Shown here: one piece after another, positions 28,016-45,941 of the stretch
How the letters are laid out: the number at the start of each line of letters is the position of its first letter
How positions within the stretch are numbered: position 1 is the stretch's first letter
DNA from: a virus
Lineage: Duplodnaviria > Heunggongvirae > Uroviricota > Caudoviricetes
Length of the DNA stretch: 56,801 nucleotides
Virus record (IMG/VR): IMGVR_UViG_2529293216_000012
Direction: 5' to 3' (one strand)
The notes under the pieces: generated by a model
Database searches by the model: none
Told to the model about the DNA's origin: nothing
The model's input: the letters and a program-made list of their open reading frames with translations, nothing else
Translations under genes and position numbers: made by a program

Positions 28016-28023
28016 GGTAAGGC

Positions 28024-31082: not shown

Positions 31083-32418
31083 CGGTCGTGGTGCGTTCCG
31101 TGGTGTGCCGTTCCTCGTCTGGCGTGAGCAGCGCGAACGTGGCGGGCGAAACATTGTCCGTCGGGAATATCCGTTACGGGAAACCGGTGGTGCAGACGAT
31201 CTGGGACCTAAACTGGCTGAATTTACGTTCAGTGTACTTGTGATGGGGGATGATGTTCAGACACAGCGAAATCGTCTGCGTGATGCCCTTCGTGCACCCG
31301 GTGCCGGGGAGCTGCTTCACCCGGATTACGGCACGTTAAATGTGCTGATAAACAGCTTTGAAAGTCGTTATAACGCTGCTGAACAGGGCGTGGTTGAGTT
31401 CACCATTAATGTCACGCCGGTAAGTGATGATACCGCACCTGCTGTCACACAGGACACGGCCGCCATTCTGGAGCAGAAGAGTACCACCGCGCTCGGGAAG
31501 GTTTTTGAAACCCTGGAAGCGGGCTGGACGGTGATTTCTGACGGAATGCACGATGTCCAGGCAATGACCGAAACCATCAGCGATAAGGTGTCCGCCCTGG
31601 AAAATGCCGTTTCCGGCATGGGGATTGTACAGGATATCAGTGCCTTTACTGCCACGTTCACGGCGCTGAAAGGGAATGCCACGGCATTACTGACAGCACC
31701 TTCCCGCATGGCCTCATCTTTTGCGGGGCTTTTCAGTGCCCTGATCACCCTGCCATCGCTGCCGTCACTGTCTTCAGGAGGCCTGAATACCCGGCCCGGT
31801 GGCAGTATCGGCCGGACGACATCCGCCTTCTCTCAGGGAATGCCGCAACTGTACAGGACATTATCTTCCCTGCGTTACGTGCTGGATGAGCAGGATAATC
31901 CGCAGACTCTCATCGGTCTGACACCGGCAGCACAAAAGAATATTCGTCTGATACGGGCGGTAATGCAGAGTGCTGCCGTGGTGGCCCAGGCACAGACCGT
32001 GGGAAAACTGCTGGATCAGGTTCTCAGTCAGGAAACCCTGCCGGACAGTGACGCAGCCCACCGTACCTGGCCTGTCTGGCTGGAAAGTTCAGTTGATCTT
32101 CAGCGCATTAACCGTGACTTAAGCGAAGCGCTCGAACGGCAGGTGATGACACTGTCCGGGCAGGGGTATACCGCCACGGCGCTGACGCTTCGTGATGCCA
32201 GACTGGCACTGACAGAGGATCTGAATACACGGGGAGTTCAGCTACCCGGTGCAACAGTAGTGACTGTACGTACCACCGAGCCTGCACTGGTGACCCTGTA
32301 CCGTGCCACCGGGAACAGTACCGGCTGGCAACGTTTTGTGCGCCGTAACGGTATTGTTGATCCGCTGTTCATTCCCGGAGGCCATTCAGTGGAGGTGATT
32401 AGTGAGCAGCAGGGTTGA
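31069..32418 (+). CDS. Mu N-like DNA circularisation protein
   Basis: Internal ATG with GGAGGG RBS chosen (MASGDGRGAFRGVPF, matching the homolog in the second tail module); track ORF starts at 31048. Confidence 0.8.
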   Translation: MASGDGRGAFRGVPFLVWREQRERGGRNIVRREYPLRETGGADDLGPKLAEFTFSVLVMGDDVQTQRNRLRDALRAPGAGELLHPDYGTLNVLINSFESRYNAAEQGVVEFTINVTPVSDDTAPAVTQDTAAILEQKSTTALGKVFETLEAGWTVISDGMHDVQAMTETISDKVSALENAVSGMGIVQDISAFTATFTALKGNATALLTAPSRMASSFAGLFSALITLPSLPSLSSGGLNTRPGGSIGRTTSAFSQGMPQLYRTLSSLRYVLDEQDNPQTLIGLTPAAQKNIRLIRAVMQSAAVVAQAQTVGKLLDQVLSQETLPDSDAAHRTWPVWLESSVDLQRINRDLSEALERQVMTLSGQGYTATALTLRDARLALTEDLNTRGVQLPGATVVTVRTTEPALVTLYRATGNSTGWQRFVRRNGIVDPLFIPGGHSVEVISEQQG

Positions 32419-33526
32419 ACTGTATCTGGGCGGTGAGATTTTTTCCGGCTGGCTGACGGTGAGTGTTCGTCGCTCTCTTGAACATCTGGCGGGCTCCTTT
32501 GAACTGGGGGTAATGATGCCCGGTGTACGCCTTCCGTCATCCGTCCGTGCCGGTCAGTCTCTGGAATTGCGCATTGACGGTCAGCCTGTGATCACTGGCT
32601 GGCTGGATCAGGTCCGGCAGCGCATCAGCGCCACGCGTTTTCAGATCACGCTCAGCGGACGGGATAAAACCGGTGACCTGGTGGACTGTTCAGCCATTCA
32701 TCCGGGCAGCCAGTGGAGGAACCGCACGCTGGAGCACATTGCTTCAGATTTGTGTGCTCCGTTCGGGGTCACGGTGCGCTGGCAGGTAAATGATGCAACG
32801 GCAGCCCGGCCCTTTTCCACCTTCACACTGGAAAACTCAGAAACCGTGGCAGATGCGCTGACACGGGCCGCGAGACACAGAGGCGTCCTGGTAACCAGTA
32901 ATGCCGCCGGTGAACTGGTTTTCACTCAGGCCGGCAGTCAGCGTGGCGACACGCTGACGCTGGGCGAAAATCTGCTGGATTTGGATCACAACGTGGATCA
33001 CCGTCTGCGCCACAGTGAATACCGTGTACGGGGGCACGGGCGTGGTGGTGGTCATGCCGGGGATGCACTGACAGCCGGAACGCTGGCCGCACCCGTTGGT
33101 ACGGTGACAGACAGTGCCATCCACCGTTACAGACCGAAAATTGTGCTGGCGGATCATGCTGTTGATGCAGACGGTGCACGCCAGAGGGCTGTCCGGGAAA
33201 TGCGCCGGGCGGTTGCCCGCTCTGTGCGCCTGACAGCCACCGTGCGGCACTGGTTTCGGGAGAACGGCCAGTTGTGGGATATCAACCTGCTGACGGCTGT
33301 CACGGCTCCCCGCACCGGAGTGGAAGAGCGTGATCTTCTTGTCTGTCAGGTGGAGTTTTCGCTGGATGCAAATCACGGCGAAACCACCCGTCTGATTCTG
33401 GCACCCCGTGACGGCTTTATTGTTCCGGCAGAGCCGGGAAACAGCGGAAGCGGAAATGCGGGTGACGTGGACGCCTTCGTGCGGGCACAGATGAAAAAAC
33501 AGGGGATTAAATTCAATGATGAATGA
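32402..33526 (+). CDS. Mu P-like baseplate hub protein
   Basis: 374 aa; conserved order N-P-gp45. Confidence 0.82.
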   Translation: MSSRVELYLGGEIFSGWLTVSVRRSLEHLAGSFELGVMMPGVRLPSSVRAGQSLELRIDGQPVITGWLDQVRQRISATRFQITLSGRDKTGDLVDCSAIHPGSQWRNRTLEHIASDLCAPFGVTVRWQVNDATAARPFSTFTLENSETVADALTRAARHRGVLVTSNAAGELVFTQAGSQRGDTLTLGENLLDLDHNVDHRLRHSEYRVRGHGRGGGHAGDALTAGTLAAPVGTVTDSAIHRYRPKIVLADHAVDADGARQRAVREMRRAVARSVRLTATVRHWFRENGQLWDINLLTAVTAPRTGVEERDLLVCQVEFSLDANHGETTRLILAPRDGFIVPAEPGNSGSGNAGDVDAFVRAQMKKQGIKFNDE

Positions 33527-34130
33527 CGAAGTCATCAGCCGCCTTCTGGCCCCCGTGATGCGGGGTGTTCGTCTGCTGTTCGGGCGTGGTGTACTGACCG
33601 GCACAACGGACACGCTGAAAATCCAGAATGTGCAAATCACCGGTATGGATGGTGAAACCTTTGATGACGTTGAACGCCCCCAGCAGTACGGGCAAATCAG
33701 CGTCCCCCTGCCTGGTGCGGAAGTTTTTCTGGCCTGTGCTGGCGGACAACGGGATCAGGCCGTGGTGCTTGTGGTGGAAGACCGCCGCAGTCGCCCGACC
33801 GGACTTACCGCCGGAGATACCGGCGTGTATCACCATGAGGGGCACCGTATACGTCTGACAAAGAACGGCCGGATCATTGTGACCTGTAAGACGCTGGAGA
33901 TTTACGCCGATGAAGGTGTTCAGGTGGATACACCGGAGGCTCACTTTACCGGTAATGTCACAGTGGATAAGAACCTGCATGTCAAAGGCAATGTGTCCAT
34001 TGACGGCACCGGAAGATCACAGGGGACGTTCACGATGTCCGAAGCGGTTATTGCCGGGATCACCTATTCAGGTCATGTGCATCACGATAACGGTGAAGGC
34101 AGCAAAACGGGAGGACCAGAGAATGGCTGA
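33516..34130 (+). CDS. Mu gp45-like baseplate assembly / spike protein
   Basis: 204 aa; overlapping start and stop. Confidence 0.8.
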   Translation: MMNDEVISRLLAPVMRGVRLLFGRGVLTGTTDTLKIQNVQITGMDGETFDDVERPQQYGQISVPLPGAEVFLACAGGQRDQAVVLVVEDRRSRPTGLTAGDTGVYHHEGHRIRLTKNGRIIVTCKTLEIYADEGVQVDTPEAHFTGNVTVDKNLHVKGNVSIDGTGRSQGTFTMSEAVIAGITYSGHVHHDNGEGSKTGGPENG

Positions 34131-34560
34131 TATTGCTGTCGTCTGGGATCAGGGTTGCGGTTCCCTGCAACTGAACGGCGCAGATCTTCTGACGGATAAC
34201 AGCCTGCTGACTGCGGTCATTATTTCACTGTTTACGGACAGGCGGGCGCTGGATTCCGATGAAATCCCTGACGGCACCCGTGACCGTCGGGGATGGTGGG
34301 GAGACAGTTTCCGGGAGCGCCCCGTTGGCTCCCGTCTCTGGCTGTTAAGCCGTGAAAAGACGCTGTCCTCCGTGGTCAGCCGTGCACAGGCCTATGCTGA
34401 TGAAGCGCTGGCGTGGCTGCATAAAAGCGGTGCTGCCACATCCGTGGTATGTCATGCCATGCGTGTGGGGCATGCTCGCCTTTCGCTTTCCGTGAAAATC
34501 ACCCTGCCGGACGGAAGCAGACATCCGATGATTTTTTATGCTGATATGAAGGGGGAATGA
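34123..34560 (+). CDS. Mu gp46-like baseplate protein
   Basis: Internal ATG (MADIAVVWDQ...) overlapping the gp45 stop (ATGGCTGA) chosen over the long track ORF 33910..34560; WWGD motif shared with the minus-strand homolog. Confidence 0.78.
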   Translation: MADIAVVWDQGCGSLQLNGADLLTDNSLLTAVIISLFTDRRALDSDEIPDGTRDRRGWWGDSFRERPVGSRLWLLSREKTLSSVVSRAQAYADEALAWLHKSGAATSVVCHAMRVGHARLSLSVKITLPDGSRHPMIFYADMKGE

Positions 34561-35642
34561 TGCCTTATCAGCCCTTACCACTGGCGCAACTGATCACACA
34601 GACACAACAGGATATCAGCCAGCGCCTGCCCGGTTCGCAGCCGGGCGTGAATGAAACCACCCTGAATGCCATTGCGTATGCACTGGCGGGTCTGTCAGCA
34701 CAGGAGCATGAACATCTGGCCTGGATCTCCCGGCAGATAATTCCGACAGAAGCTGATGAAGCCGAACTCCTGAAACACTGCGCATTCTGGGGTGTCATCC
34801 GTAAACCGGCTTCCCGCGCTGACGGACCGGTACAACTGATGCTGACCACGGATGCAGGGATCACGGAAGGCGTACTCCTTCAGCGAAGCGATGGGGTTGT
34901 GTACCGCATCACCGGCTCTGCGACCGGAAAAGCCGGAACACTGAATGTTAATGTGGAGGCGGAAAGTGCGGGGCGCGCTGGAAATACCCCGACCGGAACC
35001 CGCCTGTCCTTTATCACGCCACAGGCGGGCATCAACCAGACAGCCACGGTCACCGGCACGGGACTCACCGGTGGTGCGGATGTGGAAACGGTGCCGGAGT
35101 TGCTGTCCAGGCTGGTATTCCGGGTACAGAACCCGCCATCAGGGGGAACACAGTATGATTTTGAACGCTGGGCACGGGAAGTACCGGGCGTGACGCGGGC
35201 ATGGTGTAAGCCTGAATGGCCTGAGGCGGGTAGTGTTGGTGTGACTTTTGTTCAGGATAATAACCCTGACATTTTCCCCGGAGAAGGTGATGTGAAGCGG
35301 GTGGCGGATTATATCCGCAGTCATGATGATCCGGCGACGGGCCAGCCCGTTGGTCAGCCACTTGGGCCGACAATCAGCGTGTTTAAGCTGACCAATAAGC
35401 CGGTGGCGTTTGAGATCAGGATTGTACCCAAAACGCCGGAAAATCAGGCTGCCGTAAAACAGGCATTAACAGACCTGCTTTATAACGAATCGCGGCCGGG
35501 TGGACTTGTATTGCCTTCATCATTCTGGCGGGCTGTTGCAGGGGTGAAAGGACTGGAGGATTTTGAAGTTCGCAGCCCGCTGAAGTCCGTGATGGCCGGA
35601 GATACAGAGTTGCTGACCGTGGGGGAAATCACATGGCTGTAA
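34557..35642 (+). CDS. baseplate J-like protein (Mu gp47)
   Basis: 361 aa; overlapping start. Confidence 0.85.
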   Translation: MMPYQPLPLAQLITQTQQDISQRLPGSQPGVNETTLNAIAYALAGLSAQEHEHLAWISRQIIPTEADEAELLKHCAFWGVIRKPASRADGPVQLMLTTDAGITEGVLLQRSDGVVYRITGSATGKAGTLNVNVEAESAGRAGNTPTGTRLSFITPQAGINQTATVTGTGLTGGADVETVPELLSRLVFRVQNPPSGGTQYDFERWAREVPGVTRAWCKPEWPEAGSVGVTFVQDNNPDIFPGEGDVKRVADYIRSHDDPATGQPVGQPLGPTISVFKLTNKPVAFEIRIVPKTPENQAAVKQALTDLLYNESRPGGLVLPSSFWRAVAGVKGLEDFEVRSPLKSVMAGDTELLTVGEITWL

Positions 35643-36193
35643 CCCTGACCCCGCATCAGCGCGCCCTGTTGCAGTTGCTGCCTGACGGGCTGGCATGGGA
35701 TAAGCGGCCGTCATCCGTTCTTGCGGCTTTGTGCCTGGGCCTCAGTCATTCCACGGAGCGTGTTTCCTGGACCGGTAACCAGATGCTGGCAGAACGTTTT
35801 CCTGATTCATCCCGTCTGCTGCTGGAAGACTGGGAGCGTTATCTGGGGTTACCGGAATGTGATATGACCGGCGCAACCATTCAGGAGCGTCAGCGTTATG
35901 CCGGGAATAAATACCGGATGAAACCCTCTCTTAACCGTGAATTTTATATCCGGTTTGCGGCAGAGTTTGGTTATGAAATAGATATTCAGCCATCACCGGA
36001 TTCACAGTGGGTCAGTATTGTCACGATTAACAGTGAAACCGGCTACCGGAATATGAATGTGCTGGATGATATTCTCACGCCGCTGCGTATTTATGAAGGC
36101 GGTGCGCTGGAATGTATTCTGAACCGTTATAAGCCTGCATGGCAGACGTTTATTTACGTATATGCAAACAGTCACGAAGAGGAGAATATTTAA
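35633..36193 (+). CDS. Mu gp48-like tail protein (DUF2313)
   Basis: 186 aa; homolog of minus-strand 38907..39491. Confidence 0.78.
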   Translation: MAVTLTPHQRALLQLLPDGLAWDKRPSSVLAALCLGLSHSTERVSWTGNQMLAERFPDSSRLLLEDWERYLGLPECDMTGATIQERQRYAGNKYRMKPSLNREFYIRFAAEFGYEIDIQPSPDSQWVSIVTINSETGYRNMNVLDDILTPLRIYEGGALECILNRYKPAWQTFIYVYANSHEEENI

Positions 36194-37095
36194 TGTTCCA
36201 TGTTGATAATAATTCCGGCGTGGCGAATATGCCTGCGCTGGCACCGGCGCAGAGTAATACCACCACCTGGTTTACCGAAGGTGACGGACAAAAAGGTATC
36301 AGCTGGATTGGTCAGGACTGGCTGAATATTCTCCAGGCCGAACTGCTGAATATTCTGGCTGAAGCCAGTATTCAGCCGGATAAGGCGCAGTTAAACCAGC
36401 TTACGCTGTCCATTAAAGCCATTATCGCTGCGAATGCCTTTTCCCGGAAAAACAACCTGAAAGAAATTGCTGATGCCGGTGCGGAAGCCCAGCGTCTTGC
36501 CCGTGGTTATCTTGGTCTTGGGGCGCTTGCCACAAAAAACAGTCTTGGTCCCGGTGACGTTAATGCTCTGGCGAAGGATCAGAACCTTGCCGACCTGGAG
36601 AATGCGGGAACCGCCCGTAATAATCTGGATGTTTACAGCAAAAGCGAAGGTGATAACCGTTACCTGCGCAGGGAGCAGAACGGCGCAGACATTCCGGATA
36701 AAGGCGCTTTTATCGATAACGTTGGTTTGGGAGAAGCGGCAAAACGGGATGTGGGGACAGGGGAAAATCAGATACCGGACATGGCCTCTTTTGCCAGTGG
36801 TGATGGATGGATGAAATTACCCAACGGGAAAATCCTGCAATATGGTCGTGGTGCGGTTACGCCGACATTATCGACGCAAACAATGAGAATTACATTCAGC
36901 ATCCCTTTCTCCAAAAAAGCGGACTGCGCCATGCTTACTCATTCTGGTGATGGCGGTGCGCCTTTAGGCGCTGGGCGAGGGTTCGTGATGACTGCAGAAG
37001 GCCCAACGTTAACCGGCTTTAATTCTGCTTACAGAACGTCATCAACCAGCGACACGGTATCGATGAATTACAGTTGGTGGGCTGTTGGTGAGTAA
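36193..37095 (+). CDS. tail fibre protein (Mu S-like)
   Basis: Internal ATG overlapping the gp48 stop (TAATG); N-terminus MFHVDNNSGVANMPA. Confidence 0.75.
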   Translation: MFHVDNNSGVANMPALAPAQSNTTTWFTEGDGQKGISWIGQDWLNILQAELLNILAEASIQPDKAQLNQLTLSIKAIIAANAFSRKNNLKEIADAGAEAQRLARGYLGLGALATKNSLGPGDVNALAKDQNLADLENAGTARNNLDVYSKSEGDNRYLRREQNGADIPDKGAFIDNVGLGEAAKRDVGTGENQIPDMASFASGDGWMKLPNGKILQYGRGAVTPTLSTQTMRITFSIPFSKKADCAMLTHSGDGGAPLGAGRGFVMTAEGPTLTGFNSAYRTSSTSDTVSMNYSWWAVGE

Positions 37096-37106
37096 TTTTA
37101 TTCAGG

Positions 37107-37559
37107 GTGATTTATATGAATGAATATGTTTATAGCGCAAGGCATAATGCTTTTTTCCCTGTGGATATGATTGATAAATATAAATCAGAGGGATGGGATT
37201 TATCAGACGCTAAGGAAGTAAATCAAAATATTATCAGTGAGTTTATGGCTGAACCGCCACAAGGAAAAATCCGTATTGCCGGAGATGATGGGCTGCCTGC
37301 GTGGGCAGATATTCCTCCACCCACGCATGAAGAACTTATTGAAATTACTGAATCAGAAAGACAGCTACTAATTAACCAGGCCAACGAATACATGAACAGT
37401 AAACAATGGCCCGGTAAAGCCGCTATTGGTCGTCTGAAAGGTGAGGAACTGGCGCAATATAATTTGTGGCTGGATTATCTGGATGCACTGGAGCTGGTTG
37501 ATACCTCCAGTGCGCCAGATATTGAATGGCCTACGCCTCCGGCAGTTCAGGCCAGATGA
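37107..37559 (+). CDS. tail fibre assembly protein (Mu U-like)
   Basis: 150 aa; C-terminal motif LDYLDALELVDTSSAPDIEWPTPP typical of tail fibre assembly chaperones. Confidence 0.85.
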   Translation: MIYMNEYVYSARHNAFFPVDMIDKYKSEGWDLSDAKEVNQNIISEFMAEPPQGKIRIAGDDGLPAWADIPPPTHEELIEITESERQLLINQANEYMNSKQWPGKAAIGRLKGEELAQYNLWLDYLDALELVDTSSAPDIEWPTPPAVQAR

Positions 37560-38133
37560 CATCCGGCGCGGTGCTGGTATCTGTTGCCGTCACCGCGTCA
37601 ATGTAATCCAGCACAGCGTTAAGTCTGGTTGTTTCTGCCTGCGTCGGTTTACGTCCGGCCTGCAATTTCAGTTGAATCAGACTGATGGAAGCCATTGCTG
37701 CATCAATCAGTGACTGGCGCTGTGCTTCTGCCGCTTCTACTGCGGCACCGTGTTGTGCCTCAGTATCTGTCACCCATTTTTCACCATCCCATTTATCGAA
37801 TGGCGTTAACGGGGCGATAGTGGTTGTATTTTCAGGATAATCACCCGGAGCTGTGATTTCTTTGGCGTCTCCCGTTTCGGTGTTATAGACGATTTCACCG
37901 CGATGGTCTGGCACATATTCCCATGAGTTTAAATCCATCGAACGGCAGATAGCATAACCCGCCTTATGTATACCAGGTTCATCCAGACAGGAATATGCAG
38001 GGATACCGACACCAATGGCAAGATATTCATTTGAAGTAGAAATATATTCCCGAGTTTTACCATCATAGTTATAGACGGTAATATTCCCCGCCTTCGTGGC
38101 AATAAGCTCGCTATTTAATACGGCGTTATCCAT
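37531..38133 (-). CDS. tail fibre assembly protein of the second (minus-strand) tail module
   Basis: 200 aa; C-terminus LDYIDAVTATDTSTAPDVIWPELPEA; 3' end overlaps the plus-strand assembly gene by 29 bp. Confidence 0.85.
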   Translation of the reverse strand: MDNAVLNSELIATKAGNITVYNYDGKTREYISTSNEYLAIGVGIPAYSCLDEPGIHKAGYAICRSMDLNSWEYVPDHRGEIVYNTETGDAKEITAPGDYPENTTTIAPLTPFDKWDGEKWVTDTEAQHGAAVEAAEAQRQSLIDAAMASISLIQLKLQAGRKPTQAETTRLNAVLDYIDAVTATDTSTAPDVIWPELPEA

Positions 38134-38903
38134 TATGCAGCCCTCACGATATAGTTAAATGCAATATTTCGTGGACGGGTTTCACTCCCGCCAGTATTAC
38201 CGATACTCCCTCGTGAATGAAGTGTCGGTGATGGGATCAGACTCCCTCCTGTATTTGTGGCATCAAGTCCCCGTCCTTGTGTGTATGTCTTTTTGAAAAT
38301 CGTAGCCAGTTCCCATTCATCTTTTGTGTCGTAACCATCATTGGCAACAACAATATGGCGGTGTTTTTCCAGCATCCCTGTCTGAATGCTCAATAAAACA
38401 CGTCCTGCATCAATACCGCGCCCGTCATCCCAGCCACGAATAAACTCACCACGTAAATCAGGCAATTTATTTGTCGGATAAGCCTTTGCCAGTTCCGGGT
38501 ATTCTTCAGCAGAAAAAGCCGCACCGTTGCATTTCAGCCAGCCTGTTGGCGGTGTGGCTGAAGGCCATGGAACAGGCACACCAACAGGTAATGCAGAGCC
38601 TTCTCCCAAACCAAGGTTTTCGAGAGCCGTTTGCACAGTGCCATCCGATTTGATATCGCCAAACGGATTCTTGCGGCTTAACAGCAGCGCGCGAAGTGCG
38701 GTAAGTAACTGGTCGTGCCGCCCCTTCTCCAGGCTGGCACCGGATGCCTCCACCACGCTGCAAAGTTCCTCCTGCAACATGTCAAAGTAGTCATCATCCA
38801 GATCGGTGGCAGGCGTGCCGGTCTGGGGGTTACCACGGGTAAAACCGTTCTTACCCGCGCCGAACTTATCCTTCTGCGCGGTTTTCGTGTCTATACGATG
38901 CAT
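38133..38903 (-). CDS. tail fibre protein with phage tail-collar domain
   Basis: 256 aa; own ATG 4 nt after the gp48-like stop; collar motif [53 protein letters not shown]. Confidence 0.85.
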
Positions 38904-38906
38904 GGA

Positions 38907-39491
38907 TTACTCCGGATATTTAAAAATTACGTAGGTTTGCGACGGGCAGAGTTTGTTAAGCACACACTCGACAACGGTGTCACCCCAGATACGCAGTGCG
39001 GAATCACAGGGATCGCCACATGTCATCCAGGTGGAGTTGGTGGTGGCTGGCATGTTGACCTGCCAGTAATACCGCCATTCCGGCGCATTCACCGCGTCAG
39101 TACAGGCCGATGAGCAGGTGAAAGTGCTTTTGTCGTATCGCGTGATGGTGGCATCTGGTCTGCCCAGGGCAGCAAGCTGTGCAAGATAAAAATCCTCGTT
39201 GATGCCGCCCGCCAGGTTAACCTTCGCATCCAGCCGTTGCTGACGCTGGCGAAGGGTCTGCGTTCCCGCCGGAATACATTCATCCGGCAGACCGCACAGA
39301 CGCTCCCAGCGGTTTATCAGTTCAGTGGTGGTGCGAGGATCCAGCTCCCGCATCAGGGCATCCGCACGCTGATGAACACGGGTTAATGACGGTGCCGCAC
39401 CGGCAATCGCCGGATCGCTGGCTGACCACGCCGGACCGGGCGGCAACAGTGCCGATAACAGGCGGATGTAATCATCGTTTGTCACGTCCAT
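38907..39491 (-). CDS. Mu gp48-like tail protein (second tail module)
   Basis: 194 aa; homologous in length and motifs to plus-strand 35633..36193. Confidence 0.78.
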
Positions 39492-40540
39492 GAAATCGTC
39501 CCCAGTACCGCCAGTTCGTTTTTCGCAATGGAGATATTGTCCACCGGTGCAAGCAACTGATGGCTGTATTCCCCGTTCGCACCGGAAATCGCCTCACTGA
39601 TACGCGATACCTTGAGTTCTCCCTGCGGATAACCATCACGCAGCAGGAACGAACGCAACTCCGCGGTAATGGCAGCCCGTATTTCCGGTGTGTCCGGCGT
39701 CACGCGGATATGAAAATCCACTTTATGCGCCACCGGCCTGAATACATACAAATCAGAGCCTGCCACCGGGGCCAGTGGCTCAATGTGTTGTCTTGCCGCC
39801 GTTTCCGTTGATTCTTCCGGAATGGGATTAATCAGGTCACTGCTGGCAATCATCACACCGACAGTTCCCGTTCCCATCCAGTGACGGTATGTCCATGCGC
39901 GGGTAATGCCGGGCACTTCTTTAGCCCAGACAACATAGTCCCCGTCAGCCCCGCCCTGAGGCGTCCAGTAATACCGCTCAATGACGCGGGCGCGCCACGT
40001 TTCCAGATCTTCAGTATCGAATCCGCCAGTCAGGGTATCTGCAACACCGGAAGACGGCAGACCATTCACCGGCGTGACCAGGATTAATGCCGTACCGTCG
40101 TCAGCGTTACCGACCGCGCCTGCACTTGAGCAGGCGATCGGCACGCGCAGGACACCACCGGAGCTGGTTGCATCAGCAGTTGCCGTGTACTGAACCAGGT
40201 CATCGCGCTGAATCACGCTCCCGGCGGTCACCTTCAGGCCATCGCTGACACCTTCCCAGCGCATATACCCGCTGGCAGCCGTGGCCCCCTTGCGCGGACA
40301 CCGTTTCATCGCAGCATGTCGCGCCAGCCAGGACTCATCGCACAGGTCAGGCAGCATGTTCATTGCCAGATAATCGATGTAACCGTAAACCGTATGCAGC
40401 GCCGCCGCATACACCTTTGCCCGCACGTCTTCATCCATGCGCCGGAGCGTGTCGCTGACGTCCAGCCTGGCGAATAAATCGTTACGGAGCATACTGATAT
40501 TTTCTGCCAGCGTCGGGCGCTGAAATTCACTGTCCGCCAT
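39482..40540 (-). CDS. baseplate J-like protein (second tail module)
   Basis: 352 aa; conserved order. Confidence 0.85.
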
Positions 40541-40955
40541 GCGTTATCGCACTCCACAGATCATCAAAAGAAATCATTACCGGTCCGTCACGACGCCAGA
40601 GGGTGATACTGTTACCCAGCTCATTAATCCCGGTGCGGCGGATATCCAGATCAATACGGGACACCACGCCGTCATCAATCATCCATTGCAGGCATTCGCG
40701 GATATACCCCCTTACTGTCTGCACCAGCTGATTGGTCAGTTTGCTGCGCTGAAGCAGCCACAGTCGTGAGCCGTAACGGTCATTCTGTACCGCAGGCCAG
40801 GTATCCCCCCACCATCCCATCGGGACGTCGGCGTTGTCATCAGGCTCCGCCCGCCGCCAGGTAAACAGGGAAATCACCACGGCGCGGGTCAGCGGATCCA
40901 GCGGTGCGCTGGCGCAGGTGCGTTTACCGTTCACCGTCAGCCACAGTTCCATCAT
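40527..40955 (-). CDS. Mu gp46-like baseplate protein (second tail module)
   Basis: 142 aa; WWGDTW motif as in plus-strand gp46. Confidence 0.78.
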   Translation of the reverse strand: MMELWLTVNGKRTCASAPLDPLTRAVVISLFTWRRAEPDDNADVPMGWWGDTWPAVQNDRYGSRLWLLQRSKLTNQLVQTVRGYIRECLQWMIDDGVVSRIDLDIRRTGINELGNSITLWRRDGPVMISFDDLWSAITHGGQ

Positions 40956-41500
40956 GCCTCCATCGCTTTATCCGGTTTGTCGGTGTTACTGCCCTGACCG
41001 TTCTCTCTGTGACGATGCCCGTTATAGGCAAGCCGCATCGCTGACATGGTAGTGCCGCTGGAGTCGCACAGGTCTTTCACCTGTCCTGTCACTTCCAGGT
41101 CCATTTCAAAACGTGCTTTAGGTGAATTGCGAAACGTGATCGTTTTACCTGCACCGTCCACCACGATCCCCTCCCGGGTCAGCGTCACAGACTGCCCCTG
41201 ATCGTCATAGACAGCCACCTCACCCGTCTGCAACCCTTTCAGGCGGTAGCGCCGGTCCGACACCGTAACAACCACCGCATGAGAACGGTCGCCATCCGGA
41301 AACAACACCACCGCTTCCGCGCCGCTGTTTGCCCTTGCGGTAAAACCGTAGGGTTCAAGATGTTCAACCCCGGCTTTGGGTTCACCGGCAATCAGGGACA
41401 CATCCACGGTCTGACATTTCGTGGCGGCACTGATGCTTTTCACCACTGCCCGCGCAATCAGGCCGAGAAGTTGTCGCTGCATGGCTTCAATCGTCCTCAT
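40952..41500 (-). CDS. Mu gp45-like baseplate spike protein (second tail module)
   Basis: 182 aa; conserved order. Confidence 0.78.
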   Translation of the reverse strand: MRTIEAMQRQLLGLIARAVVKSISAATKCQTVDVSLIAGEPKAGVEHLEPYGFTARANSGAEAVVLFPDGDRSHAVVVTVSDRRYRLKGLQTGEVAVYDDQGQSVTLTREGIVVDGAGKTITFRNSPKARFEMDLEVTGQVKDLCDSSGTTMSAMRLAYNGHRHRENGQGSNTDKPDKAMEA

Positions 41501-42579
41501 CAGAACGGGTCCTCCTGTACTCTGGCTTTTTTCTTTTTCCGCGCGCCGGGGGCTTCGGGTTCAGGCAGATAAGCATCAGGCGGGCCGACACGGATTTCCG
41601 TCAGGGTGCCGTTCTGGTCCTGAGTAAACGTGACTTCCGAGACAAGCAGTTCGGTATTGTCGAAACCACAGACTGGATCGAAGACAATCACCCGCTGGTT
41701 GGGCTGCCACAGCGTACCGTTACCCTGTCGCCAGCCCTGCACCACATAGGTGGTTTCATCCGTCCGCGCCGCCCGTTGTCGGGCTTCAAAGTCAGCACGC
41801 GCAATACAGCCTGCCCCCGTGGCCTGCCCTGTCTGCCTGATATACATCGGACGGTAACGGGCAATAAATGCGTCCTCTGTGCGGGCCCGCAGCGCGGTGG
41901 TGGTGACCTCACCGAAATCATCGTCGTTTCCGGCACGCTGCCCCGCCACCTGGTAAACAGAAAACCGCTCCCGGATACTCTTCTCCGTATCACAGGAAAG
42001 GATGTTTTCCCCAAGTACCAGCGCGGTATGTGCCCGCGTTGAGCCAATACCGCCAATCACCAGCCTGCCGTGCGGATCGTCGTAAGCCAGCGCCTGCTGC
42101 TGACCGAGTATTTTGTTGATAACCTCAATCACCGTTTCACCGTGATCAGGCTGAACATCAGGAATAACACCCGACGGCGCACCGCTGTTCACCACCTCAA
42201 TGCCGAAAGGCGCAGCAAGCGCCTGCGCAATCTGCACCAGCGAGCGTCCGTTAAACTGTGTCGGTTCGGCTGCACAGTCAATCAGGTCAGCCGTCAGACT
42301 ACGTCCGGCAATACCGGTGCTGACCGAACGGGCATCGTAACGAACGGGAGTCGCCTCCACCCAGCCGGTGATCACCAGCTCATCACCAATCAGCACTTCC
42401 ACTTTTGAACCGTTTTTAATGCGCGGCTGAAGCGTGGTGATACCCTCATCTCCCGGCCACTGGCGAGTGATCTCCACACTGAAATCCCGCGCCAGCCGTT
42501 CAATACCGGCACCGATGCGCACCGATGTCCAGCCATTCCACTCCCGGCCATTTACCCGTAGCGTGACATTGTCGTTCAT
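41500..42579 (-). CDS. Mu P-like baseplate hub protein (second tail module)
   Basis: 359 aa; N-terminus MNDNVTLRVNGREWNGW parallels plus-strand P. Confidence 0.82.
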   Translation of the reverse strand: MNDNVTLRVNGREWNGWTSVRIGAGIERLARDFSVEITRQWPGDEGITTLQPRIKNGSKVEVLIGDELVITGWVEATPVRYDARSVSTGIAGRSLTADLIDCAAEPTQFNGRSLVQIAQALAAPFGIEVVNSGAPSGVIPDVQPDHGETVIEVINKILGQQQALAYDDPHGRLVIGGIGSTRAHTALVLGENILSCDTEKSIRERFSVYQVAGQRAGNDDDFGEVTTTALRARTEDAFIARYRPMYIRQTGQATGAGCIARADFEARQRAARTDETTYVVQGWRQGNGTLWQPNQRVIVFDPVCGFDNTELLVSEVTFTQDQNGTLTEIRVGPPDAYLPEPEAPGARKKKKARVQEDPF

Positions 42580-43904
42580 TGCACTGGCACCTTCAGAGGG
42601 ATCACCGGCACAAAGCCGGGATGCGTAATGGCATTACGCCGGATAATGTCCGCGTCACGCGCCGCGTTATCAAACCAGGTCGCCGCCAGCACCAGCGCGG
42701 GTAAAACCTCATCCGGCGTGCGCTGAATGATCCGTGCAGACTGTTCAAGGCGCGTGTTGATATCCGCATTCAGATCTGCTTTCACCCGGCGCAGCGCCAG
42801 AAACAGCGCATCACTGGTTGTACGGGACAACTCCTTATCAATTGCCGTATTCAGTGTGTCGCGAATGTCGGTCAGTTCTTCCCACGTTGGCAGGTCAACC
42901 GTGTTTTTCACCGCCGGTGCATTGTTCAGTGCCGGATGCGTGACAGAAGGCCAGCCGGTGCTCTGCGCGGGTGTTGTTGACTGCCCTACTGTGGCATTCT
43001 GCATCACCGCGGAAGTTGTGGGCGCAGGCAATCGTGTGACGGCATACGCCGCTTCGCTGATTGCGGTCGTACGAAGGGTGCTGGCAACCACGTTACGCTG
43101 CTGCGTCGCCGTGGCGGTAGTTTTACTGTCCGTTTTCCAGACGCCGCGCGGTTGCAGATCGCTGCCGAGGCTGACACCGGAAAGCGTTTTGATCATGGTG
43201 ACCAGGTCGCTGGCGTTACCATAAAGGCGTTTCCCGGTACGCCACATTTTCTGCACCTGCTCAACGAAATTTTTGCCTGACGATGGTGGCGGCAGAAGTA
43301 CCGAGATATCCCCCTGCAACAGCCTGGCGGCATCCGATACGGCAGAATCCACCACTTTCATCGCATCAGAAACATACCCAAGCATTGTGCTGGCATTACC
43401 GACGACGTCGTTCTGCACAAAATCTGCCACGCCATCGATACTGAAACCACTGAAGCTGTCACTGATGCAGTCATCCAGTGCAGAACAGGATGACATCAGC
43501 GTCTGCGCCGTCGCCGCACCTGAAGTGGGGTAAGAGAGTTCTCCCGCTTCGACAAACTTCAGGTCAAAGCGGACAATACGCCCTTCACTCTTCGATGTGC
43601 TGACCCGAACTTCCCCGTCAACACAGACTTTCAGCTCACCGTAAGTCGGATGGACAAGCGTGCCGGGACCGGGTTTATTCAGCGCGTCAATCAGGCGATC
43701 GCGCTGGTCAAAGCAGTCATCTCCCACCACATAAGCTGTGATGGACGGGCGGAAAGTGATTTTCCCCAGGTCTTCGGTATAGGGTTTGTCGCGGTTCGGG
43801 TATTCGTGCGTTTCCACACGACGACCGGTTCCCGCACTTTCTTCTTCAACCTTAAACGGCACACCGCGAAATGACGCGTCCTGAAGTCTGTCTTTCCACG
43901 TCAT
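42576..43904 (-). CDS. Mu N-like DNA circularisation protein (second tail module)
   Basis: Internal ATG at 43904 with GGAG RBS chosen (MTWKDRLQDASFRGVPF); track ORF extends to 43946. Confidence 0.8.
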   Translation of the reverse strand: MTWKDRLQDASFRGVPFKVEEESAGTGRRVETHEYPNRDKPYTEDLGKITFRPSITAYVVGDDCFDQRDRLIDALNKPGPGTLVHPTYGELKVCVDGEVRVSTSKSEGRIVRFDLKFVEAGELSYPTSGAATAQTLMSSCSALDDCISDSFSGFSIDGVADFVQNDVVGNASTMLGYVSDAMKVVDSAVSDAARLLQGDISVLLPPPSSGKNFVEQVQKMWRTGKRLYGNASDLVTMIKTLSGVSLGSDLQPRGVWKTDSKTTATATQQRNVVASTLRTTAISEAAYAVTRLPAPTTSAVMQNATVGQSTTPAQSTGWPSVTHPALNNAPAVKNTVDLPTWEELTDIRDTLNTAIDKELSRTTSDALFLALRRVKADLNADINTRLEQSARIIQRTPDEVLPALVLAATWFDNAARDADIIRRNAITHPGFVPVIPLKVPVQ

Positions 43905-43964
43905 ATAAACTCCGTACATAAAAAATCCCACCGGAGTGGGACTCATTAACAGATTAATTTTTCA

Positions 43965-45800
43965 TTACCTGCCAAAGCGCGTATAGCCAACATCATGGCT
44001 GACATCAAAACCGCTGGATCGCGTTTCCATAACCCGCATACCCGGAGGCGAATTCACAAAAGAGACCTTGATCTCACCATCAACTTTTGGCGCAGAAGCT
44101 TTGTTAATCATGAAGGGATTCGGGCCTGTGGCACCGGAGGCGTTGTTTGACTGAGCCGGATCTACCGCCTGATAAGGTGTGTATCCCCGTGCCGGTATTC
44201 CCGTCCCATAAGCATCATAAGCACCCGCGCCCCACTGCGCAGAGTTAATGGCATCGACCGTGTCACCGGAACTGTCGGTAAACCACTCAATAATTGGCTT
44301 CAGTTTGTCCCACATATCCTGAAACCACTTAACAACCGGTCCCCAGTTATTGATTACCATCCCCAGCGGCGACCAGGCAAAAACCTTCTTCAGAAGTTCC
44401 CAGCCAGCCTCAAAATAAGGACCAATGGTTTCCCAGAGCTTCTTGAAATAAGGTCCGACAACATCCCAGTTAGTGATAATTAATCCCGCAGCCAGGGCTA
44501 TCGCCGTCGCAATCATTCCAATCGGCGTCATCGACATGATCCTGCTGACAATACTGATGGCACCGCCAACGCCCATCAATCCCAGTTTCAGAATCGCAAG
44601 ACCGGCAGCAAGCCCGACGACGCCGCGAATAACCCGGGGATTTTCATCCGCAAACTTCGTGAATTTTTCCCCTAACTCCCCCAGCCATTGCGTGATATTT
44701 TTGGCGTCACCAGAAAATGCGCCGCCAATAGCCGCAAGGCCGTTAGTTGCGGTCCCCGTCATTGCCTCCCACAGGTTGGACAGCGTACCAAGCTGGGCCT
44801 GAACACGTTTATTCAGGCTGGCCTGTTTATTCATCTTCTGCTGGATCTGATCGTAGCCATCCTTTCCTTTATCGATTAGTGCATTGACCACCTGAAGGGT
44901 TTCGGCATCATCACCAAATATTGCCTTAAGTACACCTGTTCGCTTAACGTCGGTCAGTTTTCGCAGCTTTGCCAGTTGCCTGAACATGTTATCAAGACCG
45001 CCAAAACTTCCTTTGCCGTCAGTAAAATCGAGCTGTACCCCGAGTTTCTGGCGGGCCATGATTTTATTGACGTCCCTGATTTTCTTAACGCTTAATCCGG
45101 ACTGGATAACTTTTCGCAGGGCGTTACCTGCCGACTCCCCGTTCATCCCCATCTGATCCATCATGACGCTGATGGGGGCAAGGCTCTGTGCAGCCTGAAG
45201 ACCGTCCTTGTTCACCATCTTCAGAACAGAGCTGGTTTTAGTGAAGAAGGACAACATGTTGGTATCGTCAACACCCAGATAAAACGCCTTCTGGATAGTG
45301 TCGAACAGCCCCATCATGTCTTCTGACGCCGTTCCGGTAGCATCCTGCATCTTTGCAGCAAACTCAGCAGCCGCTTCCGGTGTTTTTTTCAGTTGTACCG
45401 CAAGATAAGCTGTCGCTTTACCCACACCGCCAAGAATGTTTTCTGCCGGGATCCCCTGACGCACCAGCATCTGCATCATGTTCTGGAAATCAGCCGTTGT
45501 ACCGGGTAGCTGGTTACCCAGGCCAATAGCCAGTTTATTGATGTCCTGAAAGCTCTTTCCAACCTCGCCGTTCGCATCCATCATGGCGACTTTCAGCCCG
45601 GTGGCGGCGTTTTCCTGATCGGCATAAGATTTCAGGGAAAGCGTCAGACCCGCTGCCAGTCCGCCACCAAGCGCCAGCCCACCCTGTGACGCTTCTTCCG
45701 CCTGGCGTTTAAATCCCCGGATTTTCTTTTGCATTTTCGACAGCGCGGGAGAAAGCCTGTCGACACCGGTGATCAACGCCTTAAGCTCAAATTCCGCCAT
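43965..45800 (-). CDS. tail tape measure protein (second tail module)
   Basis: 611 aa, helical; hydrophobic Gly/Ala-rich segment; position between chaperone and N-like gene. Confidence 0.85.
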   Translation of the reverse strand: MAEFELKALITGVDRLSPALSKMQKKIRGFKRQAEEASQGGLALGGGLAAGLTLSLKSYADQENAATGLKVAMMDANGEVGKSFQDINKLAIGLGNQLPGTTADFQNMMQMLVRQGIPAENILGGVGKATAYLAVQLKKTPEAAAEFAAKMQDATGTASEDMMGLFDTIQKAFYLGVDDTNMLSFFTKTSSVLKMVNKDGLQAAQSLAPISVMMDQMGMNGESAGNALRKVIQSGLSVKKIRDVNKIMARQKLGVQLDFTDGKGSFGGLDNMFRQLAKLRKLTDVKRTGVLKAIFGDDAETLQVVNALIDKGKDGYDQIQQKMNKQASLNKRVQAQLGTLSNLWEAMTGTATNGLAAIGGAFSGDAKNITQWLGELGEKFTKFADENPRVIRGVVGLAAGLAILKLGLMGVGGAISIVSRIMSMTPIGMIATAIALAAGLIITNWDVVGPYFKKLWETIGPYFEAGWELLKKVFAWSPLGMVINNWGPVVKWFQDMWDKLKPIIEWFTDSSGDTVDAINSAQWGAGAYDAYGTGIPARGYTPYQAVDPAQSNNASGATGPNPFMINKASAPKVDGEIKVSFVNSPPGMRVMETRSSGFDVSHDVGYTRFGR

Positions 45801-45941
45801 GTGTGCGTTTCTCCTGCTCTATCCTGTTTGCCTGACTGACCAGCAAGGGAATTTCACTGATCGGCATATTCAGCAATTCGAAAGGATTAATGCGCCAGTA
45901 GCTGGCGCAGTCAAAGAAGCGATCAGTGAGGTATTCAGCCG

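What the first reader, a model, noticed from the sequence alone, without database searches (positions are those of the whole stretch)
37107..38133. Convergent tail-fibre assembly genes overlapping by 29 bp form the junction of the two phage modules
The plus-strand assembly gene (37107..37559) and the minus-strand one (37531..38133) overlap at their 3' ends over 37531-37559. Each encodes a conserved C-terminal APD-x-x-WP motif on opposite strands, producing an imperfect palindrome TGGCCT-N16-AGGCCA (37527-37554) centred on CCGG. No attachment site, Mu right end or non-coding DNA separates the Mu-like genome from the inverted lambdoid late region. Convergent tail-fibre assembly genes are what one sees in the middle of Mu G-type or P1 C-type invertible segments, but here both fibre genes have their own start codons and no Gin/Cin-type invertase is present. 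Either this is a recombination joint between two prophages, or the relic of an invertible tail-fibre segment that lost its invertase.
Basis: seen in the sequence. Interest (0 to 1): 0.6.

Follow-up and report, generated by a model that had tools for sequence, protein, structure and literature searches.

The report
Invertible tail-fibre cassette shared by two prophages
The overlapping tail-fibre chaperone genes are the ordinary centre of a flip-flop host-range cassette; what is unusual is that a DNA invertase has recombined this cassette's end with the matching site of a second prophage, so two different phage tail modules now face each other across one cassette.

Summary
Two Caudo_TAP genes (37116/37107-37559 +, 37531-38133 -) overlap by 29 bp, each ends in APDxxWP, and the window has no invertase gene. 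The overlap is not the joint between the two phages. The same convergent pair with the same 29-bp overlap sits in intact phages (pro483) and in thousands of E. coli prophages. It is the centre of a 1.89-kb Din-type (Gin/Cin/Pin) invertible segment bounded by 26-bp crossover sites at 36710-36735 and 38601-38626. The true Mu-like/SfV-like joint is the left site. Its outer half matches the Mu-like fibre site and its inner half matches the invertase-proximal site of the SfV-like prophage, with only an 11-bp shared core. That is the signature of serine-invertase strand exchange. The most likely history: a Mu-like phage transposed into an SfV-like prophage at thrW, then one invertase-mediated inversion of about 38 kb between sites of the two prophages. 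Other assemblies carry sister isomers. One 97.8-kb contig has all four sites hybrid and the two cassettes swapped between the phages. None of the four hybrid junctions occurs in 5,426 complete E. coli genomes. Verdict: a real feature, a new variant of a known system, moderately interesting.

The parts
1369..1444 (+). tRNA-Thr(CGT), thrW. This is the attachment locus of the SfV-like prophage; proA lies at 1-1254.
   Evidence: ARAGORN. Window 1-4189 is 100% identical to E. coli O157:H7 FRIK944 328616-332804, annotated proA, tRNA-Thr, integrase.
1459..4187 (-). Left arm of the SfV-like prophage: tyrosine integrase (1459-2622), an HTH gene, yfdT-like, a phage protein and yfdR-like. It is cut off by the Mu-like insertion.
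   Evidence: Pfam Phage_integrase, E 3e-48. Colinear with the FRIK944 prophage up to 332804.
4188..36722 (+). Mu-like prophage from its left end (TGTAACCAGGTGAATCATTTGATACCG...) through repressor, ner, MuA (5600-7690), MuB (7762-8694), head, tail and baseplate to the constant part of the fibre gene. The G segment, gin, com, mom and right end are missing from the window.
   Evidence: Pfam Mu-transpos_C, Phage-MuB_C and CI repressor. The same terminal sequence is the prophage end in strain 7409. Window 27500-36728 is 99.87% identical to the Sp18-like Mu prophage of O157:H7 strain 7409.
36193..37095 (+). Chimeric tail-fibre gene (300 aa). Residues 1-181 are the Mu-like constant part ending ...FIDNVGLGE. 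The C-terminus is the gp53-like receptor-binding domain that is the silent copy in native SfV-like prophages.
   Evidence: Pfam Gp53-like_C. Comparison with the native Mu fibre and the native silent ORF. The exact protein is found on only 4 contigs.
36710..36735 (+). Left crossover site TTATCGATAACG TT GGTTTGGGAGAA. This hybrid site is the real Mu-like/SfV-like joint. The outer half equals the Mu-like S-proximal site and the inner half equals the SfV-like pin-proximal site.
   Evidence: The two homologies overlap only in AACGTTGGTTT, 36718-36728.
36723..38613 (.). The 1.89-kb invertible P-type segment. It holds gp53-like Sv' and tfa147 (rightward), convergent with tfa200 and the Collar-type Sv (leftward).
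   Evidence: 100% identical to the FRIK944 segment. 93-95% identical to the segments of phage pro483 and Citrobacter phage Omnitron. Both orientations of the same segment occur in native prophages (L024 versus L025).
37116..37559 (+). Tail-fibre assembly chaperone, 147 aa (150 aa from the GTG at 37107), cognate to the gp53-like domain.
   Evidence: PF02413, E 1.9e-31. The identical protein is listed in 5,026 collection blocks, always next to the 200-aa partner with the same overlap.
37531..38133 (-). Tail-fibre assembly chaperone, 200 aa (annotated tfaE in relatives), cognate to the Collar-type domain.
   Evidence: PF02413, E 4.8e-32. Annotated tfaE in FRIK944.
37507..37577 (.). The 29-bp 3' overlap (37531-37559) lies inside an imperfect palindrome. 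The palindrome arises because SAPDIEWP and TAPDVIWP are encoded on opposite strands. It is the symmetry centre of the cassette, not a recombination joint.
   Evidence: No T-tract terminator was found.
38133..38903 (-). SfV-like tail-fibre gene (256 aa). Residues 1-101 are the constant part ending ...ALENLGLGE, followed by the Collar-domain C-terminus from the segment.
   Evidence: PF07484 Collar. Identical gene in FRIK944. SfV orf19-21 are 96.9% identical just downstream.
38601..38626 (-). Right crossover site, TTCTCCCAAACC AA GGTTTTCGAGAG on the + strand. It is the native fibre-proximal site of the SfV-like prophage, inverted relative to the left site.
   Evidence: These are the only two matches to the site pattern in the window; 0 are expected by chance.
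38614..56801 (-). SfV-like late region (fibre, baseplate, tail, head, portal, terminase, lysis/iss). It is inverted relative to its own integrase.
   Evidence: Colinear with FRIK944 from the fibre-proximal site down to 344356: 99.9% over 36718-51516 and 99.98% over 51157-56801. In FRIK944 these genes run away from int, as in a normal lambdoid prophage.

Best explanation
The region 36710-38626 is an intact Din-family (Gin/Cin/Pin-type) invertible tail-fibre cassette. It has two 26-bp crossover sites in inverted orientation. They flank two alternative receptor-binding C-termini, each with its own chaperone gene, and the two chaperone genes converge and overlap by 29 bp. That overlap is the normal centre of this cassette family. 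The unusual point is what flanks the cassette. One side is the constant part of a Mu-like phage's fibre gene. The other side is the constant part of an SfV-like prophage's fibre gene. Proposed history follows. (1) A Mu-like phage transposed into the early region of an SfV-like prophage integrated at thrW; this step is shown by the Mu left end at 4188 abutting prophage DNA. (2) A small serine invertase (the Mu-like Gin or the SfV-like Pin, 73% identical to each other) recombined the Mu-like fibre-proximal site with the SfV-like invertase-proximal site. These sites lay in inverted orientation about 38 kb apart. Everything between them was inverted. The hybrid site that results is shown; the enzyme and the single-step path are inferred. 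The result is two tail modules converging on one cassette. The Mu-like fibre is fused in frame to the formerly silent gp53-like domain. Gin, the Mu-type G cassette and pin are predicted to lie together about 36 kb to the right, beyond the window. All sites share the TT central dinucleotide and the reading frame (D/E)N(V/L)GLGE. Any outer half can therefore join any inner half and still give an in-frame fibre. The system thus behaves as a four-site inter-prophage inversion network that can swap host-range cassettes between unrelated phages and scramble both prophages.
For: The cassette is ordinary. Identical gene order and 29-bp overlap, next to an invertase, occur in phage pro483, the FRIK944 SfV-like prophage and P2-like prophages. 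Both orientations occur in nature (L024 d|pD..pC|c versus L025 c|pD..pC|d). The sites are real. There is an inverted repeat at 36713-36736 / 38600-38623, only 2 pattern matches against 0 expected, and they fit the 26-bp Din crossover sites tabulated in PMC4134206. The site is hybrid. The window left site is TTATCGATAACG TT GGTTTGGGAGAA. The native Mu site is TTATCGATAACG TT GGTTTACGGGAA. The native pin-proximal site is TTTTCTTAAACG TT GGTTTGGGAGAA. The flanking homologies switch within 11 bp. The SfV-like late region is colinear with FRIK944 but inverted, and int and thrW are not inverted. Independent assemblies support the structure. The same a|P|c arrangement occurs in a Logan contig of SRR8924463 (L005). 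NCBI contig AAQYMI020000018.1 carries a|pD..pC|b-gin and c|gA..gB|d-pin on one molecule. All four of its sites are hybrid and the cassettes are reciprocally swapped. Four ERR runs carry c|gA..gB|a. L005 and L006 share the same 13 SNPs relative to the window but are different isomers. The Mu-like invertase matches solved Mu Gin (3UJ3) at E 2e-91. The same Mu fibre constant part (181 aa, 100% identical) is fused at GLGE to at least five different C-termini. One of these fusions is followed by a P2-type invertase and sheath genes (L034).
Against: The reciprocal junction of this particular genome (gin | G cassette | pin) lies outside the window and I could not retrieve it. No invertase or enhancer lies within ~30 kb of the cassette in this isomer, so its present flipping ability is unproven. 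The flipped state (Mu constant part joined to this Collar cassette) was not found, although only 4 contigs carry the arrangement. In the sister contig L006 the Mu right end abuts the portal gene (FRIK944 position 348023-348033), which is a different SfV-like position from the one the window's left end abuts (332804). The two genomes are therefore not simple isomers of each other; a Mu-adjacent deletion or an independent insertion is needed. Whether wild-type Din invertases work across ~38 kb has not been shown experimentally, to my knowledge. No hybrid junction occurs in 5,426 complete genomes, so the events are rare.
Confidence: 0.8

Rival explanations
1. RecA-type homologous recombination, not the invertase, made the convergent arrangement. 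In this reading a Mu-like phage that had already acquired the P-type cassette earlier (a|pD P pC|b-gin, as in L006) transposed into an SfV-like prophage carrying an identical P cassette in inverted orientation. A crossover anywhere within the 1.9-kb repeat then inverted the DNA between the two copies. The far junction would then be gin|P|pin.
For: A Mu-like genome with this very cassette next to gin exists (L006). The window's cassette is 100% identical to the SfV-like one, so a crossover inside it would leave no trace. Homologous recombination between prophages causes known large inversions in O157:H7 (own knowledge; PMC5931665 mentions a predicted Sp4/Sp14 inversion).
Against: In the only genome where both prophages are visible (L006 + L018), the SfV-like prophage carries the reciprocal Mu-type cassette, so there is one P copy, not two. 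The a|pD junction itself still requires an invertase-type exchange within an 11-bp core. No complete genome has a Mu-like phage with this junction (0 of 5,426). The isomers c|G|a and pC|b have breakpoints exactly at sites.
Confidence: 0.12
2. First reader's reading. The 29-bp overlap is itself the recombination joint between two prophages, or the segment is a dead relic that lost its invertase.
For: There is no invertase in the window. The overlap is palindromic.
Against: The whole block 36718-38620, including the overlap, is contiguous at 93-100% identity in intact phages and more than 3,000 E. coli genomes. Homology to Mu-like prophages stops at 36728-36743, not at 37.5 kb. Both crossover sites are intact. 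Sister isomers retain gin and pin.
Confidence: 0.03
3. Assembly artefact: a misjoin between a Mu-like and an SfV-like prophage across a repeated cassette.
For: Invertible cassettes are known to create spurious contigs (PMC4134206). The source genome is not among the 5,426 complete genomes.
Against: The same a|P|c path occurs in independent assemblies, with 4 contigs carrying the chimeric fibre. The alternative partners at each site share only 11-14 bp, shorter than assembler k-mers (inference). P and G cassettes are different sequences, each single-copy in L006/L018. The chimeric junctions are reciprocal on one 97.8-kb contig.
Confidence: 0.03

Closest known systems
e14 P segment / Pin, and the identical P-type cassettes of SfV-like and P2-like prophages (e.g. 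phage pro483, O157:H7 FRIK944 prophage at thrW)
   Same: Same cassette at 93-100% nucleotide identity. Same 26-bp sites, same convergent tfa genes with the 29-bp overlap, and the same in-frame switch of fibre C-termini.
   Different: Native cassettes have a fibre constant part on one side and the invertase gene on the other. Here a second phage's fibre constant part replaces the invertase, and the left site is a hybrid with a Mu-like site.
Phage Mu G segment / Gin
   Same: The left flank is a Mu-like S gene constant part whose native site and Gin homologue (3UJ3, E 2e-91) are present in relatives. The logic (Sc + Sv/U versus S'v/U') is the same.
   Different: The window's Mu-like phage has lost contiguity with its own G segment and gin. 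It reads into a foreign cassette and then into another phage's tail genes.
Multiple-inversion systems (Min of plasmid p15B; the three-site P2-like locus of EPEC in PMC4272514)
   Same: More than two compatible crossover sites recombine in several combinations, giving several isomers (for EPEC).
   Different: Those systems lie within one 2-4 kb fibre locus of one element. Here the four sites belong to two different prophages and the inverted DNA is ~20-40 kb of phage genome.
Trans-acting prophage invertases (PinQ of Qin flipping the e14 P segment, PMC12529663; Phi1 invertase proposed to flip Phi4 in EC958, PMC4134206)
   Same: An invertase from one prophage acts on another prophage's sites.
   Different: In those cases both recombining sites belong to the same prophage. 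Here one site from each prophage recombines and the two genomes are fused.
Prophage-mediated large chromosomal inversions in E. coli O157:H7 by homologous recombination (own knowledge: Iguchi et al. 2006; see PMC5931665)
   Same: Inversions with end points in two prophages produce chimeric prophages with mismatched ends.
   Different: Those use kilobases of homology and RecA. Here the exchange maps to an 11-12 bp core of a site-specific recombination site.

Membership tests
Din-family (Gin/Cin/Pin/Hin) invertible tail-fibre segment | Two ~26-bp crossover sites in inverted orientation, matching the family consensus, with identical asymmetric central dinucleotides | tested here: met
   36710-36735 is TTATCGATAACG TT GGTTTGGGAGAA. 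38601-38626 (reverse complement) is CTCTCGAAAACC TT GGTTTGGGAGAA. Compare the crossover-site table in PMC4134206.
Din-family (Gin/Cin/Pin/Hin) invertible tail-fibre segment | Sites lie inside the fibre reading frame, so a constant N-terminus is fused to alternative C-termini | tested here: met
   Both sites encode ...N(V/L)GLGE in the same frame. The predicted flipped products are open.
Din-family (Gin/Cin/Pin/Hin) invertible tail-fibre segment | The segment carries two convergent sets of variable fibre end plus cognate assembly chaperone | tested here: met
   Gp53-like_C + Caudo_TAP rightward, and Collar + Caudo_TAP leftward.
Din-family (Gin/Cin/Pin/Hin) invertible tail-fibre segment | Adjacent small serine invertase gene, which also carries the Fis-dependent enhancer | tested here: not met
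   No serine recombinase anywhere in the 56.8-kb window. It is present next to the same cassette in native relatives and in isomer L006.
Din-family (Gin/Cin/Pin/Hin) invertible tail-fibre segment | Both orientations of the segment occur | tested here: inconclusive
   Met for the same cassette in its native context (L024 versus L025). The flipped state of the double-ended arrangement was not found, but only 4 contigs carry it.
Multi-site inversion network (Min-like) | More than two sites whose halves are found in several pairings | tested here: met
   12 of 16 possible outer|inner pairings are seen across loci: a|gA, a|gB, a|pD, a|pC', b|gB, b|pC, c|pC, c|pD, c|gA, d|pD, d|pC, d|gB. Switching within one clone was not testable here.
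Ordinary prophage boundary (att site or Mu end) | An att core repeat or a Mu terminal sequence at the joint | tested here: not met
   The Mu left end is at 4188. No Mu right-end sequence (...CGCCGCGCTAT) is seen at either candidate joint (36.7 kb or the 37.5-kb overlap), and megablast of the window against the loci holding gin-com-mom-right end gave no window match to that arm.
RecA-type homologous recombination joint | An extended stretch of shared sequence across the breakpoint in both parents | tested here: not met
   The parents share only AACGTTGGTTT (11 bp) at the left joint, and 12 bp at the L006 right joint.

The most novel reading that the evidence does not exclude
The Mu-like and SfV-like prophages form a live, reversible four-site, two-invertase 'inter-prophage shufflon'. 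Large (20-40 kb) inversions between sites of different phages occur repeatedly in present-day E. coli lineages. These inversions swap host-range cassettes between unrelated phages. They also toggle both prophages between intact (inducible) and scrambled (locked) configurations. This would be a natural, directly observable mechanism for horizontal movement of tail-fibre modules and for reversible prophage domestication.
Probability: 0.3. Interest if true: 0.75.

Novelty: new variant of a known kind. Interest (0 to 1): 0.58.

Why it matters
Comparative work since the 1990s (Sandmeier, Haggård-Ljungquist, Arber; own knowledge) inferred that tail-fibre host-range modules move between unrelated phages. 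That work suspected the invertase crossover sites as the exchange points. Here the intermediates are visible. One is a hybrid site with the breakpoint inside an 11-bp core. Another is a contig with all four reciprocal hybrid sites and swapped cassettes. There are several further isomers, and an independent Mu × P2-like exchange. This makes the mechanism testable with PCR or long reads on existing isolates. It also has three practical consequences. First, such inversions break both prophages: the Mu ends are no longer in the inverted arrangement that transposition needs, and the SfV-like late genes are inverted between the att sites. Second, they can confuse prophage prediction and assembly. 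Third, they show that Din sites can be end points of structural variation well beyond the 2-3 kb cassette.

Tried and rejected
(1) A search for the Mu gix sequence with up to 3 mismatches found nothing. The sites are of the pix/cix-like subtype, and the repeat finder and a degenerate pattern found them.

(2) Exact-pattern scans for the hybrid sites found nothing: a|pD in genome contigs and viral contigs, and c|g, d|g and b|p in viral contigs only. These scans have little power, because the native Mu site itself gave only 1 viral hit and genome contigs holds one genome per species.

(3) Look-ups with common proteins returned only complete-genome contexts and did not reach the rare assemblies. 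These were yfdR-like, tfa147 and the Mu repressor. As a result I could not see the start of contig AAQYMI020000018.1 or the far junction of the window's genome.

(4) The predicted pin-side chimeric ORF (d|gA, 139 aa) is not in the protein collection. That search instead yielded the c|gA fibre P0001, which opened up the isomers.

(5) The predicted flipped fibre (Mu constant part + this Collar cassette) was not found at 100% identity. Only variants with other Collar cassettes appeared.

(6) An intrinsic terminator at the overlap was rejected. There is a strong hairpin but no T-tract, and the scan counts are at or below shuffled expectation.

(7) The 13 SNPs between the window and L005/L006 were checked for a methylation-motif error pattern. 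None was seen.

(8) Literature searches found no report of invertase-mediated recombination between sites of two different prophages. The library lacks most subscription-journal papers, so this absence is weak evidence.
Full report
OBSERVATION. A + strand gene runs 37107..37559; the ATG at 37116 gives the 147-aa product annotated in relatives. A - strand gene runs 37531..38133 (200 aa). They overlap by 29 bp. Both are Caudo_TAP tail-fibre assembly chaperones. They are 33% identical and share a C-terminal DTS(S/T)APD(I/V)xWP motif. Because that motif is encoded on both strands, the overlap lies in an imperfect palindrome. The palindrome folds strongly on both strands but has no T-tract. tblastn with three Din invertases finds no invertase anywhere in the window.

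THE OVERLAP IS NOT THE JOINT. The block 36718-38620 is contiguous in many other genomes. It is 100% identical in 41 O157:H7-type genomes, and parts of the query match more than 3,000 E. coli genomes. It is 92-95% identical in Citrobacter phage Omnitron and two P2-like phages (Escherichia phage P2 from O157:H43 str. T22, and pro483). In pro483 the order is fibre, tfa (20278-20721 +), tfa (20693-21295 -, the same 29-bp overlap), silent fibre end, DNA invertase. In the SfV-like prophage at thrW of O157:H7 FRIK944 the order is pinE, silent gp53-like fibre end, tfa, tfaE, fibre, baseplate. The identical 147-aa chaperone is listed in 5,026 collection blocks. In all ten places shown there it sits against the 200-aa partner at the same spacing, in SfV-like and P2-like prophages, and in both orientations relative to the flanks.

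THE CASSETTE AND ITS SITES. The repeat finder reports an inverted repeat at 36713-36736 / 38600-38623. Written outer to inner, the sites are TTATCGATAACG TT GGTTTGGGAGAA (36710-36735) and CTCTCGAAAACC TT GGTTTGGGAGAA (reverse complement of 38601-38626). They are the only two matches in the window to a degenerate site pattern, against 0 expected. They resemble the 26-bp invertase crossover sites tabulated for EC958 prophages and the Mu/P1/e14/p15B consensus (PMC4134206). Both lie in frame and encode ...N(V/L)GLGE. The central dinucleotides are 1,891 bp apart. Native prophages carry the same cassette in both orientations, with halves exchanged exactly at the TT (L024 d|pD..pC|c versus L025 c|pD..pC|d). 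These are therefore functional crossover sites.

THE REAL JOINT. Homology to Sp18-like Mu prophages (99.8%) runs from the left up to 36728-36743. Homology to the FRIK944 SfV-like prophage starts at 36718. The two overlap only in AACGTTGGTTT. The native Mu-like S-proximal site is TTATCGATAACG TT GGTTTACGGGAA. The native pin-proximal site of the SfV-like prophage is TTTTCTTAAACG TT GGTTTGGGAGAA. The window's left site is the outer half of the first joined to the inner half of the second. An exchange confined to the core of a recombination site is what a serine invertase produces. It is not what RecA or an assembler working on repeats would produce.

WINDOW ARCHITECTURE. Window 1-4189 contains proA, thrW, int and four early genes. 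It is 100% identical to FRIK944 328616-332804. At 4188 a Mu-type left end begins (TGTAACCAGGTGAATCATTTGATACCG..., with repeated TTTGATACC motifs). The same end bounds the Mu-like prophage of strain 7409. A CI-type repressor, ner, MuA and MuB follow, then head, tail and baseplate up to the fibre constant part. After the cassette, the SfV-like late region runs backwards. It is colinear with FRIK944 down to 344356, which is the window's end. In FRIK944 the same genes run away from int, as in a normal prophage.

MOST ECONOMICAL HISTORY. Two events suffice. First, the Mu-like phage transposed into the SfV-like prophage at 332804/5. Second, one inversion occurred between the Mu S-proximal site (A) and the SfV-like pin-proximal site (D). 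These sites lie in inverted orientation about 38 kb apart. The distance comprises the 1.4-kb G cassette, about 5 kb of Mu right arm, 29.7 kb of SfV-like DNA and the 1.9-kb P cassette. The model predicts gin, the Mu-type G cassette and pinE together about 36 kb beyond the right crossover site, outside the window.

SISTER ISOMERS. The chimeric 300-aa fibre (36193-37095) is encoded on only four contigs.

- L005 (Logan assembly of SRR8924463) has the same structure as the window.
- L006 (NCBI AAQYMI020000018.1, 97.8 kb) has the Mu fibre, the same cassette, and then gin-DUF6645-com-mom-Mu right end. Its right site is TTCTCCCAAACC AA GGTTTCAGGGAT, which is the SfV inner half joined to the gin-proximal outer half.
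- A protein search with a predicted reciprocal ORF returned P0001. This is the SfV-like constant part fused at GLGL to the Mu-type variable end.
- P0001's contexts include L018, on the same 97.8-kb contig as L006. L018 reads SfV tail, fibre | Mu-type G cassette | pinE, GIY-YIG, AraC, P4-type integrase, as downstream of pinE in FRIK944.

That one molecule therefore carries all four hybrid sites (a|pD, pC|b, c|gA, gB|d), and the two cassettes are swapped reciprocally between the phages. This is the outcome expected from A×D and then B×C inversions plus a local G flip.

- Four ERR runs (L017, L019, L021, L022) carry c|gA..gB|a. Here the two tail modules converge on the Mu-type cassette, which is the mirror of the window.
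- SRR11909393 (L020) carries c|gA..gB|b-gin. Its gin-proximal core is disrupted by a 1-bp insertion.

Across all loci, 12 of the 16 possible half-site pairings are seen. L005 and L006 share the same 13 SNPs relative to the window but are different isomers, which suggests switching within a lineage. None of the four hybrid junctions is present in 5,426 complete RefSeq E. coli genomes. The events are therefore rare.

GENERALITY. The same 181-aa Mu constant part (100% identical) is fused at GLGE to other Collar-type cassettes, P0014 and P0015. In L034 the cassette is followed by a P2-type invertase and P2 sheath and tube genes that are 99.6% identical to a P2-like prophage. That is an independent Mu × P2-like exchange at a crossover site. 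The Mu-like phage with this repressor sits at ten different chromosomal places in ten genomes, so it is an active transposing phage. Repeated insertions near other prophages are therefore plausible.

ENZYMES. The SfV-like PinE and the Mu-like Gin homologue are 73% identical. The latter matches the solved Mu Gin structure at E 2e-91. Cross-reactivity within this family is established: own knowledge for Gin/Cin/Pin/Hin complementation, PinQ acting on e14 in PMC12529663, and trans action proposed in EC958. Which enzyme acted here is inferred, as is whether an enhancer tens of kilobases away suffices.

CONSEQUENCES (inferred).
- The Mu-like fibre now ends in the gp53-like domain with its cognate 147-aa chaperone.
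- The SfV-like fibre keeps the Collar domain with the 200-aa chaperone.
- A flip of the cassette would exchange these ends between the two phages, in frame.
- The Mu right end is inverted relative to the left end, so the Mu-like element should not transpose.
- The SfV-like late operon is inverted between attL and attR, and the whole composite exceeds one head-full.
- Both prophages are therefore locked unless the inversion reverts.

OPEN POINTS.
- The reciprocal junction of this genome was not seen.
- In L006 the Mu right end (...CGCCGCGCTAT) abuts the portal start codon (FRIK944 348023-348033). The position expected from the window's left end is 332805. This needs either a Mu-adjacent deletion or an independent insertion. 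The estimated contig-start position is compatible with the latter, but I could not test it.
- A rival remains possible in which a Mu-like phage that already carried the P cassette recombined homologously with the resident P cassette. I rate it at 0.12.

VERDICT. This is a real feature. The locus is nevertheless an informative natural product of invertase-mediated recombination between two prophages. It is a new variant of the known Din invertible-cassette systems.

Noticed in passing
window 37507-37577: The tfa overlap sits in an extended imperfect palindrome that folds as a strong hairpin on both strands (-32 kcal/mol, z -2.1; -36.7 kcal/mol, z -4.2) but lacks a T-tract. It could act as a bidirectional RNA 3'-end or stability element between the expressed and silent halves of the cassette, or it could be a mere by-product of the shared APDxxWP codons.
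   Followed up: partly
L034 (GCA_053802295.1 DBKYET010000047.1) 1-6403: The same Mu-like fibre constant part (99.8% identical to window 35756-36736) is joined at the crossover site to a P2-like prophage's cassette. A P2-type invertase and sheath/tube genes follow. This is an independent inter-prophage exchange, which probably implies a chromosomal rearrangement.
   Followed up: partly
L020 (Logan SRR11909393) ~11660-11690: The SfV-like fibre is joined through the Mu-type cassette directly to gin. The gin-proximal site core carries a 1-bp insertion (AAACCgAAGGTTT), which should inactivate it. This arrangement cannot arise by inversions alone if the Mu-like phage is nested in the SfV-like prophage. 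It suggests a Mu copy elsewhere on the chromosome.
   Followed up: no
L006 17380-17445 (AAQYMI020000018.1): The Mu right end (...CGCCGCGCTAT) abuts the start codon of the SfV-like portal gene (flank ATGCT). The gene caller extends the portal ORF into Mu DNA (416 aa against 408 aa). This is a different SfV-like position from the one the window's Mu left end abuts (FRIK944 332804).
   Followed up: partly
window 26734-31296: Thirteen substitutions distinguish the window's Mu-like tail region from L005 and L006. Eleven of them also distinguish it from strain 7409, and ten from L017. The next 16 kb has almost none. No methylation-like motif was seen. It looks like a recombination patch from another Mu-like copy.
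   Followed up: partly
window 4188-5166: The left end and repressor region of this Mu-like phage differ from the Sp18-like prophage of strain 7409: 81% identity over the first 175 bp, then no similarity. The tail region is 99.9% identical, so the phage is mosaic. The exact repressor protein is listed in 5,436 collection blocks and lies at ten different chromosomal sites in ten genomes.
   Followed up: partly
window 4140-4190 (FRIK944 332740-333059): The Mu-like phage is inserted in a small SfV-like prophage gene that is already annotated as frameshifted in FRIK944. The predicted 5-bp target duplication is ACACC.
   Followed up: no
window 56508-56801: The window ends exactly at the end of an iss (increased serum survival, bor-like) gene next to the SfV-like lysis genes. 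The window also starts exactly at the proA start codon.
   Followed up: no
L003 9640-10611 (strain 7409 native Mu-type G cassette): The native Mu-type cassette (1.4 kb) holds two alternative fibre ends but only one chaperone gene (173 aa, on the silent strand in that isolate). One orientation would therefore express a fibre end without a co-oriented chaperone.
   Followed up: no
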